DNA of 39,902 nucleotides from Eubacteriales bacterium (GCA_045536155.1 JAZSMZ010000100.1:1-39902), one strand, 5' to 3'; positions 10,658 through 13,672 are shown, numbered from the stretch's first letter. Program-made: numbers and translations. The notes: a model not told the origin generated them from the sequence alone.

Positions 10658-11224
10658 ATGTCTAATTTAATCAATATACACGACTTCTTTTCGCTTCAGG
10701 TGAAAAGAAACGAGCAATATACCGCCGAGCTGATCTCGTTAAACGAACATACGGCCGAATACGGACTTATACTGTCAAAAGCGGATGCCGCCGAACTTAT
10801 CGACACACGTGCAAAAGCGTTGCGCGAAAACGGGCGCATAGAGACGGGTCTTGGGGCGCTATCGATGATAATCAAGGTCTTTTCCGTTTCGGAGTATATA
10901 AATCAGCAGAATTTCGCGCAAACGGTACACGAGCTTCTCGAGCTGTTTTACTACCTCAAAACGGAAAGCCGCGACCGCATCGGCGACCGCGAGCTGATCG
11001 AGATACTGTTTGACAAATTCGAAAACGAATGTCACGGATCTCTTGACCTTATGCCCGCCGACGAAATCCCTCTGCCGGGGATCGACCGCATGGGCAAAAA
11101 ATCGCAAAGAAGAGACACCACGTCAGACGACGAAATGCACGATCAAAGCAACAATGCATGGGACGAAGATAATTCGTCCGATGACGACGATTATTATTTG
11201 TGGGACTCAAAAAATGGCCAATAA
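10658..11224 (+). CDS. Conserved hypothetical protein (DUF6323-like)
   Basis: NEHTAEYGLILS...ALRENGRIE...FYYLKTE...FENECHGS resembles the clostridial DUF6323 family (from memory); acidic tail. Confidence 0.65.
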   Translation: MSNLINIHDFFSLQVKRNEQYTAELISLNEHTAEYGLILSKADAAELIDTRAKALRENGRIETGLGALSMIIKVFSVSEYINQQNFAQTVHELLELFYYLKTESRDRIGDRELIEILFDKFENECHGSLDLMPADEIPLPGIDRMGKKSQRRDTTSDDEMHDQSNNAWDEDNSSDDDDYYLWDSKNGQ

Positions 11225-12185
11225 TGAAATCTTGTCGTTCAGACAGACCGCACTAGAAAAAGCCAATATAAAATATAACGACTACACCCGTTCGCTCATT
11301 GCCGAGCTCGAACGGCTGGAGCTTATCACTCCCGCCGAAAGCGCATGCGTGCGCGCAAGCATCATGGACGCGCTGGGCGAGATAATCAACATCTGGACCG
11401 ACGGCGAGAGCAGCTCGATAATGACCGATACCGCGCACACGCTTATGCTTTCACTGCTATTCAATATCGATGCCTATCTCATCGGGCTCAACGATATTGA
11501 GCGCGCTGTTGACGAGCTTTTGACAAAGAGCGCAATGGAGCTCTATTTCAGCGGTCAAAGACGGTTAAAGCTTCACCTTTGCGAAGCGACCGGTCTGCTC
11601 GTCAAGGTAAAACACACGCGGCTGCATCTGCCCAACGTCTATTACAACCGCACAATAGAACATTCGCTTATCATGTCGCTCAAAAAGTACGATATACGCT
11701 TCGGCGCTCACCTTTCGAACAGCGATATCGACTATCCGCTTGCCGTAAACTCGAACTCTCTTCGCGGAATCCACTTTATACGCGGATATCTGCTCTCATT
11801 GGTCGCAGAAAACTCATTTTGCCGCGAGTATTCTCCCGATGAGGTCGCATATCTGTACAAGACCTTCTGCGACAATCACAGATACCCATACAGCGAGCCG
11901 CGCGTAAATATTTATCTGCTTGTCTTTGTCAATGCGCTGTTTTGCGACTATCTTCGCAAGGAGCCCGGATCGCTCATGCTCAGCGAGGACGAATGCGACA
12001 TCTGCGAGGAGCTGCTCGGATCGCTTGACGAAGAGGACCGCAAAAATCTGATCTGCAATACCGCATCAAAAATGCTTGGCGGAAATCAGGCGTATAATGT
12101 CAAAACGGCATCGAAGATCGTCGGCGAGATCAACAACGCCATAAAGAACCGCAAGCTCAAAAACTACGTTGTGTGTGAGCTGTAA
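11214..12185 (+). CDS. Conserved hypothetical protein (DUF6179-like)
   Basis: TDGESSSI...IDYPL...GIHFIRGYLLSLVAENSFC; paired with the DUF6323-like gene; ATG 11214 overlaps the upstream gene's end. Confidence 0.65.
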   Translation: MANNEILSFRQTALEKANIKYNDYTRSLIAELERLELITPAESACVRASIMDALGEIINIWTDGESSSIMTDTAHTLMLSLLFNIDAYLIGLNDIERAVDELLTKSAMELYFSGQRRLKLHLCEATGLLVKVKHTRLHLPNVYYNRTIEHSLIMSLKKYDIRFGAHLSNSDIDYPLAVNSNSLRGIHFIRGYLLSLVAENSFCREYSPDEVAYLYKTFCDNHRYPYSEPRVNIYLLVFVNALFCDYLRKEPGSLMLSEDECDICEELLGSLDEEDRKNLICNTASKMLGGNQAYNVKTASKIVGEINNAIKNRKLKNYVVCEL

Positions 12186-12262: not shown

Positions 12263-12291
12263 TTGACAATAAATTGATATCGTGGTATAAT
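12263..12291 (+). promoter_or_regulatory. Sigma-A promoter of tRNA-Ser
   Basis: Perfect TTGACA-17 nt-TATAAT. Confidence 0.8.
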
Positions 12292-12313
12292 ACCATCTGT
12301 TGAGCCGCCATAC

Positions 12314-12405
12314 GGAGAGATGGCTGAGCTGGTCTAAGGCGCACGACTGGAAATCGTGTGTCGGCTAATACCCGACCGAGGGTTCGAATCCCTCTCTCTC
12401 CGCCA
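12314..12405 (+). tRNA. tRNA-Ser (anticodon GGA)
   Basis: Acceptor GGAGAGA/TCTCTCC-GCCA; anticodon arm CACGA-CTGGAAA-TCGTG; long variable arm; T-loop GGTTCGAATCC. Confidence 0.96.
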
Positions 12406-12407
12406 AC

Positions 12408-12447
12408 AAAAAACGCACTTTTGTCTACCGACAAAGGTGCGTTTTTT
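12408..12447 (+). terminator. tRNA terminator hairpin
   Basis: AAAAAACGCACTTTTGTC-tacc-GACAAAGGTGCGTTTTTT. Confidence 0.75.
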
Positions 12448-12449
12448 GA

Positions 12450-12620
12450 ATGATGTTTGCCTACGGCAAATGATGTTGGCTCTGCCAATGATGTTCGCTT
12501 CGCGAATGATGTGTGGCTTCGCCACATTTTGAGGCAAACATCACATCATTGCGGAACGCAGTGGAGCAACATCATATTTGCAAAGCAAATGCATCATATC
12601 GCCGTAAGGCGATGCATCAT
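12450..12620. repeat. Hairpin-punctuated 7-mer ladder: 4x ATGATGT then 4x RCATCAT
   Basis: ATGATGT at 12450, 12470, 12488, 12506; (A/G)CATCAT at 12543, 12569, 12591, 12614; short GC hairpins between copies. Confidence 0.85.
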
Positions 12621-12649
12621 TTGACAAACAACCTATTTTATGGTATAAT
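12621..12649 (+). promoter_or_regulatory. Sigma-A promoter of the four-helix-bundle gene
   Basis: TTGACA-17 nt-TATAAT with TG extension, abutting the last CATCAT. Confidence 0.8.
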
Positions 12650-12671
12650 AGCGGTGATAGGAGGTGTAGCT

Positions 12672-13025
12672 ATGAAAGAAAACAAACTCGTTGAGCTTTC
12701 AATGGAATTTTCCGTTGACATTATAAATCTCGTTAAATTTCTAAAATCAAATCACGAAACTATTATCGCTAACCAAATCGGCAGAAGCGGCACCTCAATT
12801 GGCGCAAACATTCATGAAGCGCAGTATGCACAAGGAACAAAAGACTTTATCTCCAAATTTGAAATTGCTCTCAAAGAAGCAAGTGAAACGGGATATTGGC
12901 TTGAATTGCTTTATAGAACCAAGTATATTGATGAGCAGAATTTCAAAGCGTTATCCTCTAAGTGTACTTCTTTGAGAGTTATGTTAATCGCATCTTGTAA
13001 AACCGCAAAGGAGAACGTAAAATGA
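12672..13025 (+). CDS. Four helix bundle protein (TIGR02436 / 23S rRNA IVS-like, Avd-like fold)
   Basis: QIGRSGTSIGANIHEAQYAQGTKDFISKFEIALKEASETGYWLELL; RBS AGGAGGT. Confidence 0.9.
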   Translation: MKENKLVELSMEFSVDIINLVKFLKSNHETIIANQIGRSGTSIGANIHEAQYAQGTKDFISKFEIALKEASETGYWLELLYRTKYIDEQNFKALSSKCTSLRVMLIASCKTAKENVK

Positions 13026-13339
13026 AAAAGCTTGATAAAAATCAAAAAATCGGTATAATTGCGTTAGCAATATTTGTGATTTTTCTAATTGGTTTTTCTG
13101 CGCTAAGCAGTCTTGTTCAAAGTGGTTCCATCCCCGATTTTACTGCTAGCCAACGCGTACAAGGATTATTGGCTTTCGTAATGTTTTGTCCCCTTTGTAT
13201 TGCTATGTTTTTTCTTGGAAAGCATTTCAAATCCAAAAACAGTAAAATAGGCAGTAATTTACTCTTTGTTTCTGTAGCATTGTTTATATTCGGTATTATT
13301 CAAGCGCTATTGTCATTGTTAGGTGCATATGGATCATAA
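13022..13339 (+). CDS. Small 3-TM membrane protein
   Basis: Three hydrophobic segments; RBS AAGGAG; AT-rich. Confidence 0.7.
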   Translation: MKKLDKNQKIGIIALAIFVIFLIGFSALSSLVQSGSIPDFTASQRVQGLLAFVMFCPLCIAMFFLGKHFKSKNSKIGSNLLFVSVALFIFGIIQALLSLLGAYGS

Positions 13340-13450
13340 AATTACGCACCTTTTTTGCGTTTTTACCCCTGTTTACGCACCGCTTGCGCATTTAAGCCAA
13401 CGAAAAGGACACCATACGGTGTCCTTTTTTCGTTGGTGTAGAATTTTTAT

Positions 13451-13584
13451 AGGGATTCGAACAGGAGCGGTAGTGAATGACGTGCCGGTGGCACGTCAGA
13501 GCCGCGACTGACCGAGGAGCGTAGCAAAGCCGTATCGCAGGCGGCTTTCGGTGTCGCGACGAGACCGAATCCCTCTCTGAGCCA
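13451..13584. repeat. GC-rich multi-stem element ending in a tRNA-3'-end mimic
   Basis: AGGGATTCG (13451) pairs with CGAATCCCT (13566); inner hairpin TGACGTGCC-ggt-GGCACGTCA; terminus CGAATCCCTCTCT..GCCA matches tRNA-Ser 12385-12405. Confidence 0.7.
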
Positions 13585-13672
13585 AACATAAACCGCAATT
13601 CTAATACAAAGGGATTGCGTTTTTTGTAATTATATGGTATAATATACTTATCAAACGAAAGGAGCCTCCACT

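What the first reader, a model, noticed from the sequence alone, without database searches (positions are those of the whole stretch)
12450..13025. Self-complementary 7-mer 'ladder' abutting the promoter of a four-helix-bundle (Avd-like) gene
Seen: 4x ATGATGT, each followed by a mini-hairpin (TTGCC-tac-GGCAA, TGGC-tct-GCCA, TCGC-ttc-GCGA, GTGGC-ttc-GCCAC), then 4x complementary RCATCAT with hairpins between them (TGCG-gaa-CGCA, ATTTGC-aaa-GCAAAT, ATCGCC-gtaa-GGCGAT). As single-stranded nucleic acid this could fold into a rod of 7-bp helices joined by four-way junctions. The spacers differ in sequence but keep their pairing, which implies selection on structure. Established: this protein fold resembles DGR Avd, a pentameric nucleic-acid-binding protein. 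Inference: a structured RNA/ssDNA plus cognate binding protein, forming a module of unknown function.
Basis: partly seen in the sequence, partly recalled or inferred. Interest (0 to 1): 0.75.

Follow-up and report, generated by a model that had tools for sequence, protein, structure and literature searches.

The report
Hairpin-and-word array behind tRNA gene
The odd "ladder" is real: it is a divergent copy of the catalogued but unexplained Gut-1 motif, and it forms the non-coding head of a small gene cassette that sits right after tRNA genes in gut Clostridia and usually carries an Avd-like four-helix-bundle gene.

Summary
The element is not unique to this gene. The genome holds 12 such arrays, at least 7 of them directly behind a tRNA gene.

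Each half of the array is a divergent relative of the orphan Rfam motif Gut-1 (RF01706). The window copy scores 24 bits against a cut-off of 50. Copies in relatives score 54-91 bits, always as two opposed hits.

The full unit is about 620 bp: terminator, two opposed word+hairpin arrays, a consensus promoter and a PF05635/TIGR02436 gene. It starts exactly at the tRNA 3' end. Among the PF05635 loci examined it lies behind tRNAs of 24 different anticodons.

Within one array the word is repeated exactly, while the hairpins differ. Between arrays the word changes, and it follows the protein tree. Loop sequences are mirror-polar: GNA on one strand, TNC on the other.

I read the words as recognition sites for the cassette's own protein on folded single strands, DNA more likely than RNA. 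This is inferred, at confidence 0.4. A rod of four-way junctions is possible but not favoured.

Function remains unproven. The scan has met this element before on other DNA.

The parts
12263..12291 (+). promoter of the tRNA gene (TTGACA-17-TATAAT, TG extended)
   Evidence: 12 of 12 consensus matches
12314..12405 (+). tRNA-Ser (anticodon GGA), CCA encoded; the cassette begins at the next base
   Evidence: 57.6 bits; the junction right after CCA is the same in relatives
12407..12448 (+). intrinsic terminator, 19-bp stem, A-tract before and T-tract after; part of the repeated unit
   Evidence: the same terminator follows tRNA-Gln on contig C122
12450..12525 (+). first half-array: 4 x [ATGATGT + mini-hairpin]; loops TAC, TCT, TTC, TTC
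   Evidence: weak Gut-1 matches 12411-12481 (24.2 bits) and 12490-12527 (18.3 bits)
12526..12542 (+). central segment; 12532-12543 is perfectly complementary to 12451-12462 (first word plus the 5' arm of hairpin 1)
   Evidence: 12-nt inverted repeat; the same relation holds with other letters in copies C18, C19 and C58 (read by eye)
12543..12620 (+). second half-array: 4 x [RCATCAT] with three hairpins between them (loops GAA, AAA, GTAA); a mirror image of the first half
12621..12649 (+). consensus sigma-70 promoter abutting the last word
   Evidence: 12 of 12, TG extended
12672..13025 (+). four-helix-bundle gene (PF05635 / TIGR02436), 117 aa; GGAGG at 12660-12664
13008..13025 (+). 3' end of the ORF carries AAGGAGAA and ATGA: ribosome site and start codon of the next gene, overlapping the stop; the right edge of the conserved cassette
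   Evidence: ATGA overlap with a following ORF in 29 of 100 PF05635 loci
13022..13339 (+). variable cargo: 105-aa predicted membrane protein, no family over cut-off
   Evidence: shared only with locus L085 among close relatives
13451..13584 (+). stretch bounded by an inverted copy (13451-13462) and a direct 13-nt copy (13566-13578) of the tRNA-Ser 3' end; a possible right border of a 1.18-kb islet
   Evidence: D2, I4; similar tRNA-end copies behind tRNA-Ser(GGA) in L204, L206, L223 and L224

Best explanation
The stretch is one copy of a polar, two-part intergenic element of gut Clostridia. The record titles of related loci name Oscillospiraceae, Ruminococcus, Acutalibacteraceae and Faecousia.

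Anatomy. Each half is an array of 3-5 units. A unit is a constant 7-base word with core RTGA, followed by a GC-rich mini-hairpin of free sequence. The second half is the mirror image of the first. One half corresponds to the orphan Rfam motif Gut-1. The element heads a cassette of about 620 bp (terminator, array, consensus promoter, PF05635 four-helix-bundle gene, built-in ribosome site and ATG for a variable next gene). The cassette starts at the base after the CCA end of a tRNA gene.

Shown: the anatomy, the family link, the tRNA context, the statistical tie to the gene, the constancy of the word inside an array, its co-divergence with the protein, and the mirror polarity of the loops.

Inferred:
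- The words are recognition sites for the cassette's own protein, an Avd-like oligomer (its closest solved relative, 2RLD, has five chains on record).
- The protein reads them on locally single-stranded, hairpin-folded nucleic acid. DNA is more likely than RNA. The strand that carries the TCA form of the word carries C-GNA-G hairpins, the sequence type of very stable DNA mini-hairpins.
- One oligomer would sit on each half.
- Binding next to the -35 box would then set the activity of the cassette promoter, or serve the keeping or placing of the cassette at tRNA ends, or both.
For: Family. The Gut-1 consensus is three hairpins separated by GUGAAAU (alignment). Relatives' arrays score 54-91 bits, with the two halves hitting opposite strands. 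One copy in this genome, C58, scores 59.4 bits.

Context. Of 25 tRNA genes found in the genome, 6 are followed by an array. The total is 12 array loci.

Tie to the gene.
- 61 of 99 PF05635 genes with at least 300 nt upstream carry a periodic inverted word array, against 2 of 600 control upstream regions of this genome.
- 63 of 96 have a same-strand tRNA ending within 450 nt upstream. These tRNAs cover 24 anticodons, and the median distance is 263 nt.
- Across 61 genomes, Gut-1 and PF05635 occur together in 30, Gut-1 alone in 7, PF05635 alone in 4 and neither in 20.

Cassette edges. Homology to close relatives runs from about 12381-12406 to 13015-13030 only.

Words.
- 76 distinct arrays carry 26 different 6-mers, each repeated exactly 5-9 times (commonly 6-8) in its array. 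The 11 nt beside each word are only 33% alike.
- First-half and second-half words are complementary at 1662 of 1750 positions.
- 18 word classes need 18 changes on the tree of 58 linked proteins, where 17 is the minimum. Shuffled labels need 40.9 on average, and 0 of 200 shuffles are as low.

Hairpins. 119 of 175 first-half spacers and 115 of 175 second-half spacers hold a perfect hairpin of at least 4 bp. Shuffled spacers give 10 and 18. There are 147 and 160 different spacer sequences. Seven pairs show changes on both sides in 13 close copies (3 of 500 shuffles reach this).

Polarity. In TGA-first arrays, half 1 has 76 TN(N)C loops, 1 GN(N)A and 23 other. Half 2 has 48 GN(N)A, 1 TN(N)C and 44 other. 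TCA-first arrays are reversed. The closing pair is C:G in 87 of 88 TN(N)C loops and 57 of 65 GN(N)A loops. Each loop type makes up about 5% of random hairpins.

Literature. GCGNAGC and GCGNNAGC are described as extraordinarily stable DNA mini-hairpins (abstract of PMC13037366). The stability of d(GNA) loops depends on the closing pair (abstract of PMC3201870) (listing).

Location. The array lies between a 19-bp terminator and a promoter, outside any evident transcription unit.
Against: - No binding was tested.
- Co-divergence of word and protein is also what plain linkage gives.
- Most arrays have no PF05635 gene beside them. In this 95%-complete genome only C55 has a gene and C104 a 30-aa fragment. 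Arrays of at least five other word classes have no matching protein here, yet their words are intact.
- In relative G003, none of about 15 listed arrays lies beside any of its 9 PF05635 genes (compared by eye).
- Four-helix-bundle proteins of this family are not known to read sequence.
- Weinberg et al. rated Gut-1 'RNA: Y'.
- Contigs from RNA libraries cover the array.
- The terminal pair of two of the word helices is U.G on the + strand (12 of 13 and 9 of 13 copies), which would be C.A on the other strand.
Confidence: 0.4

Rival explanations
1. A structured RNA. Transcripts that read through the tRNA terminator fold into hairpins joined by word-word helices. The fold would stop, process or stabilise read-through RNA, or act as a small RNA.
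For: - Table 1 of Weinberg 2010 rates Gut-1 as RNA 'Y', not cis-regulatory.
- The stretch folds at z -6.2 as RNA.
- 87.5% of cells are paired in the ladder structure, against 24-58% when the 3' partners are slid.
- The terminal pairs U.G, U-A and C-G are all standard on the + strand.
- Metatranscriptome contigs from three studies cover the array. One 316-nt contig runs from 12446 into the gene. In run X17 the summed depth falls from 405 on the tRNA to 0 across the array.
Against: - The array sits after a 19-bp terminator and before the promoter.
- Loop preferences are mirrored between the halves, so no single strand carries the same loops throughout.
- All helices of an array share one word, although pairing alone would let them drift.
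- G.T versus A.C at mismatched word pairs is 29 versus 19, so there is no clear strand signal.
- The RNA-library data are contigs. DNA carry-over and copies from other organisms are not excluded, and depth is one figure per contig.
Confidence: 0.2
2. A recombination site or hotspot. The folded or repeated array would mark the place where promoter-gene cassettes are swapped in and out behind tRNA genes. The swap could use an unidentified site-specific enzyme, with logic like integron attC. Or it could use homologous exchange between the many array copies.
For: - Rows of array-gene-array-gene are seen in relatives G018 and G009.
- Chimeric arrays exist. The first half of C122 matches the window copy, while its second half and promoter match the C13/C98 type. 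L013 joins ATGATGT words to ATATCAT words.
- Near-identical cassettes (82-95% protein identity) lie behind at least 8 different tRNAs.
- Behind tRNA-Ser(GGA), arrays of different word classes occur in 5 of 24 relatives, other short repeats in 2, and none in 17 (partly by eye).
- A 13-nt direct repeat of the tRNA 3' end lies 1181 nt downstream.
- RNA-library contigs show shorter array variants and another join.
Against: - No recombinase was identified or searched for, beyond the Y1 transposase and reverse transcriptase.
- The conserved cassette includes the whole array, with its left edge at the tRNA end, not inside the array.
- Word classes differ within one row of cassettes.
- The array was not found in the phage or plasmid collections.
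Confidence: 0.2
3. A selfish miniature repeat (MITE- or REP/BIME-like) that spreads by a transposase supplied in trans and has no role for the neighbouring gene.
For: - Many copies per genome: 12 loci here, and up to 51 Gut-1 matches in one relative.
- Copies often lie at contig ends.
- The build is palindromic.
Against: - No Y1 transposase is found in this genome.
- Across 61 genomes, Y1 and Gut-1 co-occur in 17, Y1 alone in 7, Gut-1 alone in 20 and neither in 17.
- Of 20 Y1 loci, none has a convincing array within 1.5 kb: two weak AT-rich hits (L186, score 6; L198, score 3) look unlike the element.
- The units are not copies of one palindrome (33% identity).
- Orientation is fixed relative to the flanking genes.
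- The same hairpins are kept across genera.
Confidence: 0.1

Closest known systems
Gut-1 RNA motif (Rfam RF01706; Weinberg et al. 2010, PMC2864571; I saw Table 1 and passages, not the supplements)
   Same: Three or four short GC hairpins separated by a constant 7-nt linker. It is found in uncultured gut bacteria and has no known function. Copies in relatives and one copy in this genome pass the curated threshold.
   Different: The window copy uses AUGAUGU instead of GUGAAAU and scores 24 bits against 50. The Rfam model covers one half only. The full element is two opposed halves, plus terminator and promoter, at tRNA 3' ends and tied to PF05635 genes. I found none of this in the text I could read; the supplements are closed.
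Avd of diversity-generating retroelements and the 23S rRNA intervening-sequence protein family (PF05635; PDB 4DWL, 2RLD, 2GSC)
   Same: The same four-helix-bundle fold (TM 0.77-0.95). The gene rides beside a stable-RNA gene and a strongly structured nucleic acid.
   Different: No reverse transcriptase is found in the genome. No template or variable repeat lies in 12300-13650. The element is not inside an rRNA helix.
REP/BIME clusters with RAYT transposases (own knowledge)
   Same: Extragenic palindromic units, each with a short conserved word, clustered in opposed orientation after terminators.
   Different: The stems are not conserved copies. No Y1 transposase is linked to them. A promoter and a gene belong to the unit.
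Repeated-word operator or centromere arrays, such as the omega-repressor heptads of Inc18 plasmids and parC/ParR of plasmid R1 (own knowledge)
   Same: Arrays of a short word in direct and inverted order next to the promoter of a small cognate gene. The word is specific to the system.
   Different: Here the words are separated by hairpin-forming spacers with polar loops. The spacing is irregular (18-26 nt). The protein is not a ribbon-helix-helix protein.
Integron attC sites (own knowledge)
   Same: Sequence-variable, structure-conserved sites with complementary 7-base cores, lying between small cassettes.
   Different: The build is multi-unit. Each cassette has its own promoter. No integrase was identified. 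The sites lie at tRNA ends.

Membership tests
Gut-1 (RF01706) | score at or above Rfam's gathering threshold of 50 bits | tested here: not met
   The window scores 24.2 and 18.3 bits. A copy on C58 of the same genome scores 59.4 bits, and relatives score 54-91 bits.
Gut-1 (RF01706) | three or more short hairpins separated by one constant 7-nt linker | tested here: met
   (alignment to the model).
Gut-1 (RF01706) | continuity with bona fide members (same context, intermediate word classes) | tested here: met
   Relatives share the layout of tRNA, terminator, two opposed arrays and promoter, with words GTGAAAT, ATGAAAT, GTGATGT and ATGATGT.
Diversity-generating retroelement | reverse transcriptase gene | tested here: not met
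   PF00078 was not found in the 95%-complete genome.
Diversity-generating retroelement | template and variable repeat pair | tested here: not met
   There are no long direct repeats in 12300-13650. The rest of the window was not examined for this.
Diversity-generating retroelement | Avd-type accessory protein | tested here: met
   Fold match to 4DWL at TM 0.77/0.82 and to 8UB7 chain E at 0.74/0.78, with 10% identity and Foldseek E 0.2-0.3.
REP/BIME with RAYT | Y1 (HUH) transposase in the genome or beside the repeats | tested here: not met
REP/BIME with RAYT | units are copies of one conserved palindrome | tested here: not met
   The sequence next to the words is 33% alike within an array.
Integron attC | integron integrase and attI next to the cassette row | not tested
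   No search for IntI was made. None is evident in the loci read.
Integron attC | a single imperfect hairpin with R''/L'' and L'/R' boxes | tested here: not met
   There are 6-9 units per element.
Type III toxin-antitoxin (ToxIN-like) | direct RNA repeats transcribed from the promoter upstream of the toxin gene | tested here: not met
   The array lies upstream of the promoter, and half of it is inverted.
23S rRNA intervening sequence | insertion inside an rRNA helix | tested here: not met
   The element lies after a tRNA gene. Only the ORF family is shared.
Known defence systems (PADLOC) | a protein match to a listed system | tested here: not met
   No match for the three ORFs at E up to 0.1.

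The most novel reading that the evidence does not exclude
The array and the PF05635 protein together form a self-contained, minimal mobile cassette that homes to the 3' ends of stable-RNA genes without any known transposase or integrase. In this reading the four-helix-bundle oligomer reads word-plus-hairpin arrays on folded DNA. It thereby places, keeps or copies the cassette, and it supplies a promoter and a start codon for swappable cargo genes. The same logic could explain why this protein family also sits in rRNA intervening sequences and in DGRs.
Probability: 0.15. Interest if true: 0.9.

Novelty: new variant of a known kind. Interest (0 to 1): 0.65.

Why it matters
Gut-1 has been catalogued since 2010 with no function and no organism attached. 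PF05635 is a large protein family that is understood only as the Avd accessory protein of DGRs.

Three results here turn two orphans into one testable pair:
- The motif is half of a polar two-part element.
- The element sits at tRNA ends.
- Its word changes together with an adjacent Avd-like gene.

If the protein reads the array, this would be a new kind of nucleic-acid recognition: a constant word plus a free hairpin, read by a helical-bundle oligomer. It could also reveal a new way of placing genes next to tRNA genes in abundant gut bacteria.

Tried and rejected
- Chance or low complexity: rejected.
- DGR: no reverse transcriptase.
- REP/RAYT: no Y1 transposase here, and no arrays beside the Y1 genes of relatives.
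- HEPN link of PF05635: this was my own recollection. The HEPN survey PMC3710099 has no passage with bAvd, S23, IVS or 'intervening'. Pfam shows no second family at E up to 10. Dropped.
- PADLOC: no match.
- Long perfect hairpin as the selected fold: changes in the hairpins are compensated locally, not across the halves (partly by eye).
- Strand test by G.T versus A.C: 29 versus 19 in word pairs and a handful either way in stems. Inconclusive.
- Empty-site comparison through the upstream DUF6179 gene: the neighbourhood is not conserved in the 3 relatives read (L167-L169) of 5 with a match.
- My hairpin-cluster detector did not discriminate well (39 of 99 loci against 43 of 600 controls). I used the word-array criterion instead.
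- Phage and plasmid collections: only the conserved core of the coding region matches, in 2 phage and 4 Nostoc plasmid records. The array does not match.
- RNA-library contigs: they show presence only, with no start, end, strand or level. Parts without cover say nothing.
- Remnants of the gene beside the solo arrays of this genome: none except on C104.
- Literature: no paper holds at least two of 'Avd-like', 'four-helix bundle protein', 'downstream of tRNA' and 'hairpin array'. Searches for 'Gut-1 RNA' and for TIGR02436, PF05635, 23S_rRNA_IVP or 'S23 ribosomal protein' gave nothing on this link.

Full report
**1. Observation**

ATGATGT occurs at 12450, 12470, 12488 and 12506. Each copy is followed by a 4-5-bp hairpin. 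After a 17-base centre come ACATCAT (12543, 12569) and GCATCAT (12591, 12614), with three hairpins between them.

The 7-mer occurs 14 times in the window, against 6.2 +/- 2.2 expected; 0 of 100 shuffles reach 14. The stretch folds much better than shuffles, at z -6.2 as RNA and z -5.1 as DNA.

Upstream lie tRNA-Ser(GGA) at 12314-12405 and a 19-bp terminator at 12407-12448. A 12-of-12 consensus promoter starts at 12621, the base after the last word. The ORF 12672-13025 is PF05635/TIGR02436. Its model (pLDDT 95) matches 2RLD at TM 0.91-0.95, 2GSC at 0.80-0.86 and Avd 4DWL at 0.77-0.82.

**2. The element is not private to this gene**

A profile built from six copies finds 12 loci in the 1.69-Mb, 161-contig genome.
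- Six of them follow six of the 25 tRNA genes that ARAGORN finds (Ser-GGA, Gln, Arg, Leu, Ala, Pro).
- C98 follows a tRNA 3' end, read by eye.
- C58 and C80 follow protein-coding genes with terminators.
- Several loci sit at contig ends.

The genes after the arrays differ. They include proteins with no family match, membrane proteins, a cytidine-deaminase-like protein and a PadR regulator. Only C55 has a full PF05635 gene, and C104 has a 30-residue fragment.

**3. A known family**

At gathering thresholds Rfam reports only the tRNA. At relaxed thresholds the best hit on the array is Gut-1 (RF01706), at 24.2 and 18.3 bits against a cut-off of 50. The alignment shows why: Gut-1 is three hairpins separated by GUGAAAU.

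Arrays of relatives that use GTGAAAT score 54-91 bits. The two halves hit opposite strands, side by side. Gut-1 matches occur as follows:

| Sample | E threshold | Genomes with a match | Over the curated cut-off |
|---|---|---|---|
| 61 genomes of the order sample | 1e-3 | 37 | 28 |
| 151 genomes of the class sample | 1e-6 | 28 | 21 |

The order-sample count includes copy C58 of this genome, at 59.4 bits. At class level the distribution is patchy.

Weinberg et al. 2010 list Gut-1 as RNA 'Y', not cis-regulatory, human gut only. I saw Table 1 and passages. Their discussion is in supplements that I could not open.

**4. The tie to the four-helix-bundle gene**

A pattern search (RTGAWRY three times, 10-16 nt apart) hits 39 of 61 genomes, and the reversed-pattern control gives almost none. 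Some single hits are chance or other tandem repeats. PF05635 occurs in 34 of 61 genomes.

| PF05635 | Gut-1 present | Gut-1 absent |
|---|---|---|
| present | 30 | 4 |
| absent | 7 | 20 |

The genomes are kin and so are not independent.

I examined 27 PF05635 loci of relatives (of 29; two gave no tblastn hit) plus 80 loci from named MAGs of Oscillospiraceae, Ruminococcus, Acutalibacteraceae, Faecousia and others.
- A periodic word array followed by its reverse complement lies upstream of 61 of 99 genes with at least 300 nt upstream. The same test hits 2 of 600 control upstream regions of this genome.
- A same-strand tRNA ends within 450 nt upstream in 63 of 96 loci. These tRNAs cover 24 different anticodons, and the median distance from tRNA end to start codon is 263 nt.
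- Other PF05635 genes carry contiguous heptad runs instead (by eye).

**5. The cassette**

Homology between the window and close relatives (protein identity 82-95%) begins at the tRNA 3' end or terminator (12381-12406). It stops at the stop codon (13015-13030). The exception is L085, which also shares the next gene.

These relatives sit behind Tyr, Ser-CGA, Arg-ACG, Ser-GCT, Leu-GAG, Arg-CCG, Leu-TAG and Ser-GGA tRNAs.

The last 18 bases of the ORF hold AAGGAGAA and ATGA, that is, a ribosome site and a start codon that overlaps the stop. The gene that begins there differs from locus to locus. Examples are a membrane protein here and, by my reading of the first residues only, nucleotidyltransferase-like, MazG-like and other genes elsewhere. 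Such an ATGA overlap with a following ORF occurs in 29 of 100 loci.

In G018 and G009, arrays and small genes alternate in rows, with different word classes in one row.

**6. Words and hairpins**

In 76 distinct arrays I found 26 different 6-mer words, most built around RTGA. Each word is repeated exactly within its array, most often 4+4 times. The 11 bases beside the copies are only 33% alike.

First-half and second-half words are complementary at 1662 of 1750 positions. The rest are G.T 29, A.C 19 and other 40.

On a tree of 58 array-linked proteins, the 18 word classes need 18 changes (17 is the least possible). Shuffled labels need 40.9 on average, and 0 of 200 shuffles are as low. The tree used the quick method and has few starred branches.

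Perfect hairpins of at least 4 bp occur as follows:

| Spacers | With hairpin | Shuffled (mean) | Distinct sequences |
|---|---|---|---|
| First half | 119 of 175 | 10 | 147 |
| Second half | 115 of 175 | 18 | 160 |

In 13 close copies the ladder-plus-hairpin structure pairs 87.5% of cells, against 24-58% when the 3' partners are slid. Seven pairs changed on both sides. The word helices themselves hardly vary within this class.

**7. Polarity**

Loop sequence is tied to word orientation:

| Array type | Half | TN(N)C | GN(N)A | Other |
|---|---|---|---|---|
| TGA-first | 1 | 76 | 1 | 23 |
| TGA-first | 2 | 1 | 48 | 44 |
| TCA-first | 1 | 0 | 10 | 7 |
| TCA-first | 2 | 7 | 0 | 6 |

The closing pair is C:G in 87 of 88 TN(N)C loops and 57 of 65 GN(N)A loops. 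Each loop type makes up about 5% of random hairpins.

So the strand that carries the TCA form of the word carries C-GNA-G hairpins. That is the sequence type described as extraordinarily stable DNA mini-hairpins (abstracts of PMC13037366 and PMC3201870). No single strand has the same loops in both halves.

**8. Reading**

Complementarity alone would allow each of the four helices to drift, as the hairpins do. Instead all words of an array are the same, and the word changes with the cassette's protein. The simplest factor that is specific to a cassette is that protein.

I therefore read the words as its recognition sites and the hairpins as structural spacers that must fold. This implies single strands. 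The mirror design, the DNA-type loops and the position between terminator and promoter favour DNA over RNA.

This reading is inference. No binding was tested, and linkage alone gives co-divergence. Most arrays stand without the gene, including intact arrays whose word class has no matching protein in this genome.

**9. Rivals**

*RNA.* Contigs from RNA libraries of three studies cover the array. One contig joins it to the gene. In one run the summed depth declines across the array. The terminal word pairs are U.G on the + strand. But these data are contigs, without strand or ends, and DNA carry-over is not excluded.

*Recombination hotspot.* Supporting points are:
- rows of cassettes;
- chimeric arrays such as C122 and L013;
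- variable occupancy behind tRNA-Ser(GGA): arrays in 5 of 24 relatives, other short repeats in 2, none in 17 (partly by eye);
- a 13-nt direct repeat of the tRNA 3' end 1181 nt downstream.

No enzyme is known for this.

*Selfish REP-like repeat.* No Y1 transposase is found here, none is linked to arrays in relatives, and the units are not copies of one palindrome.

**10. Earlier notes of this scan**

The scan has met this element at least ten times on other DNA. Those notes reach similar conclusions: a Gut-1 relative, a tRNA flank, a four-helix-bundle gene and folded DNA. I had reached the main points before reading them. One note's RAYT lead prompted, which did not support it here.

**11. Verdict**

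The finding is a real, strongly selected element. It is a divergent member of a catalogued motif, with a full architecture, a genomic address and a protein partner that I could not find in print. Its function is still open.

Noticed in passing
window 13451-13584: The stretch is bounded by an inverted copy (13451-13462) and a 13-nt direct copy (13566-13578) of the tRNA-Ser 3' end. A terminator and a near-copy of the cassette's -10 region (13629-13644) follow. Similar tRNA-end copies lie behind tRNA-Ser(GGA) in L204, L206, L223 and L224. A related stretch follows tRNA-Gly on C67. This could mark the right border of a 1.18-kb islet. There is no Rfam match.
   Followed up: partly
G000 C87 and C109 after the tRNA-Leu genes; C122 after tRNA-Thr (three tandem copies); C104 about 190-260: A second dispersed tRNA-flank repeat of about 80 nt ends in a terminator-like hairpin. 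One copy interrupts the PF05635 fragment on C104 after about 30 codons.
   Followed up: no
L161 and L162 (G018), upstream parts of L064 and L070: A conserved stretch of about 100 nt (containing CCCATCATCGCCAAGG) lies between gene ends and the next array. No Rfam family matches it at E up to 0.001.
   Followed up: no
L043, L046, L047, L053, L062; L218 behind tRNA-Ser(GGA): Other PF05635 genes, and one tRNA flank, carry runs of contiguous heptads without hairpins. L067, L069, L070 and L208 have complementary CT-rich and AG-rich tracts around one hairpin. These may be simpler versions of the same idea.
   Followed up: partly
G000 C24:1-113: An inverted copy of a first half-array lies on the other side of the shared terminator, at a contig start. 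It may be a real palindrome or an assembly artefact.
   Followed up: no
window 13367 joined to 12404 in RNA-library contigs of runs X16 and X18: In other strains the 3' flank of this cargo gene is followed, after 31 other letters, by the terminator and array. Contigs that skip 12479-12563 or 12493-12563 show shorter array variants.
   Followed up: no
window 10658-12185: A DUF6323 and DUF6179 gene pair lies just upstream of the tRNA. Its neighbourhood is not conserved in the relatives whose matching loci I read.
   Followed up: partly
L113, L120, L124, L126, L127, L125, L144, L145: Close relatives of the protein, some with arrays and tRNAs upstream, occur in MAGs labelled Victivallales, Bacteroidaceae, Bulleidia and Acholeplasmataceae. 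This may reflect transfer between gut phyla or binning errors.
   Followed up: no
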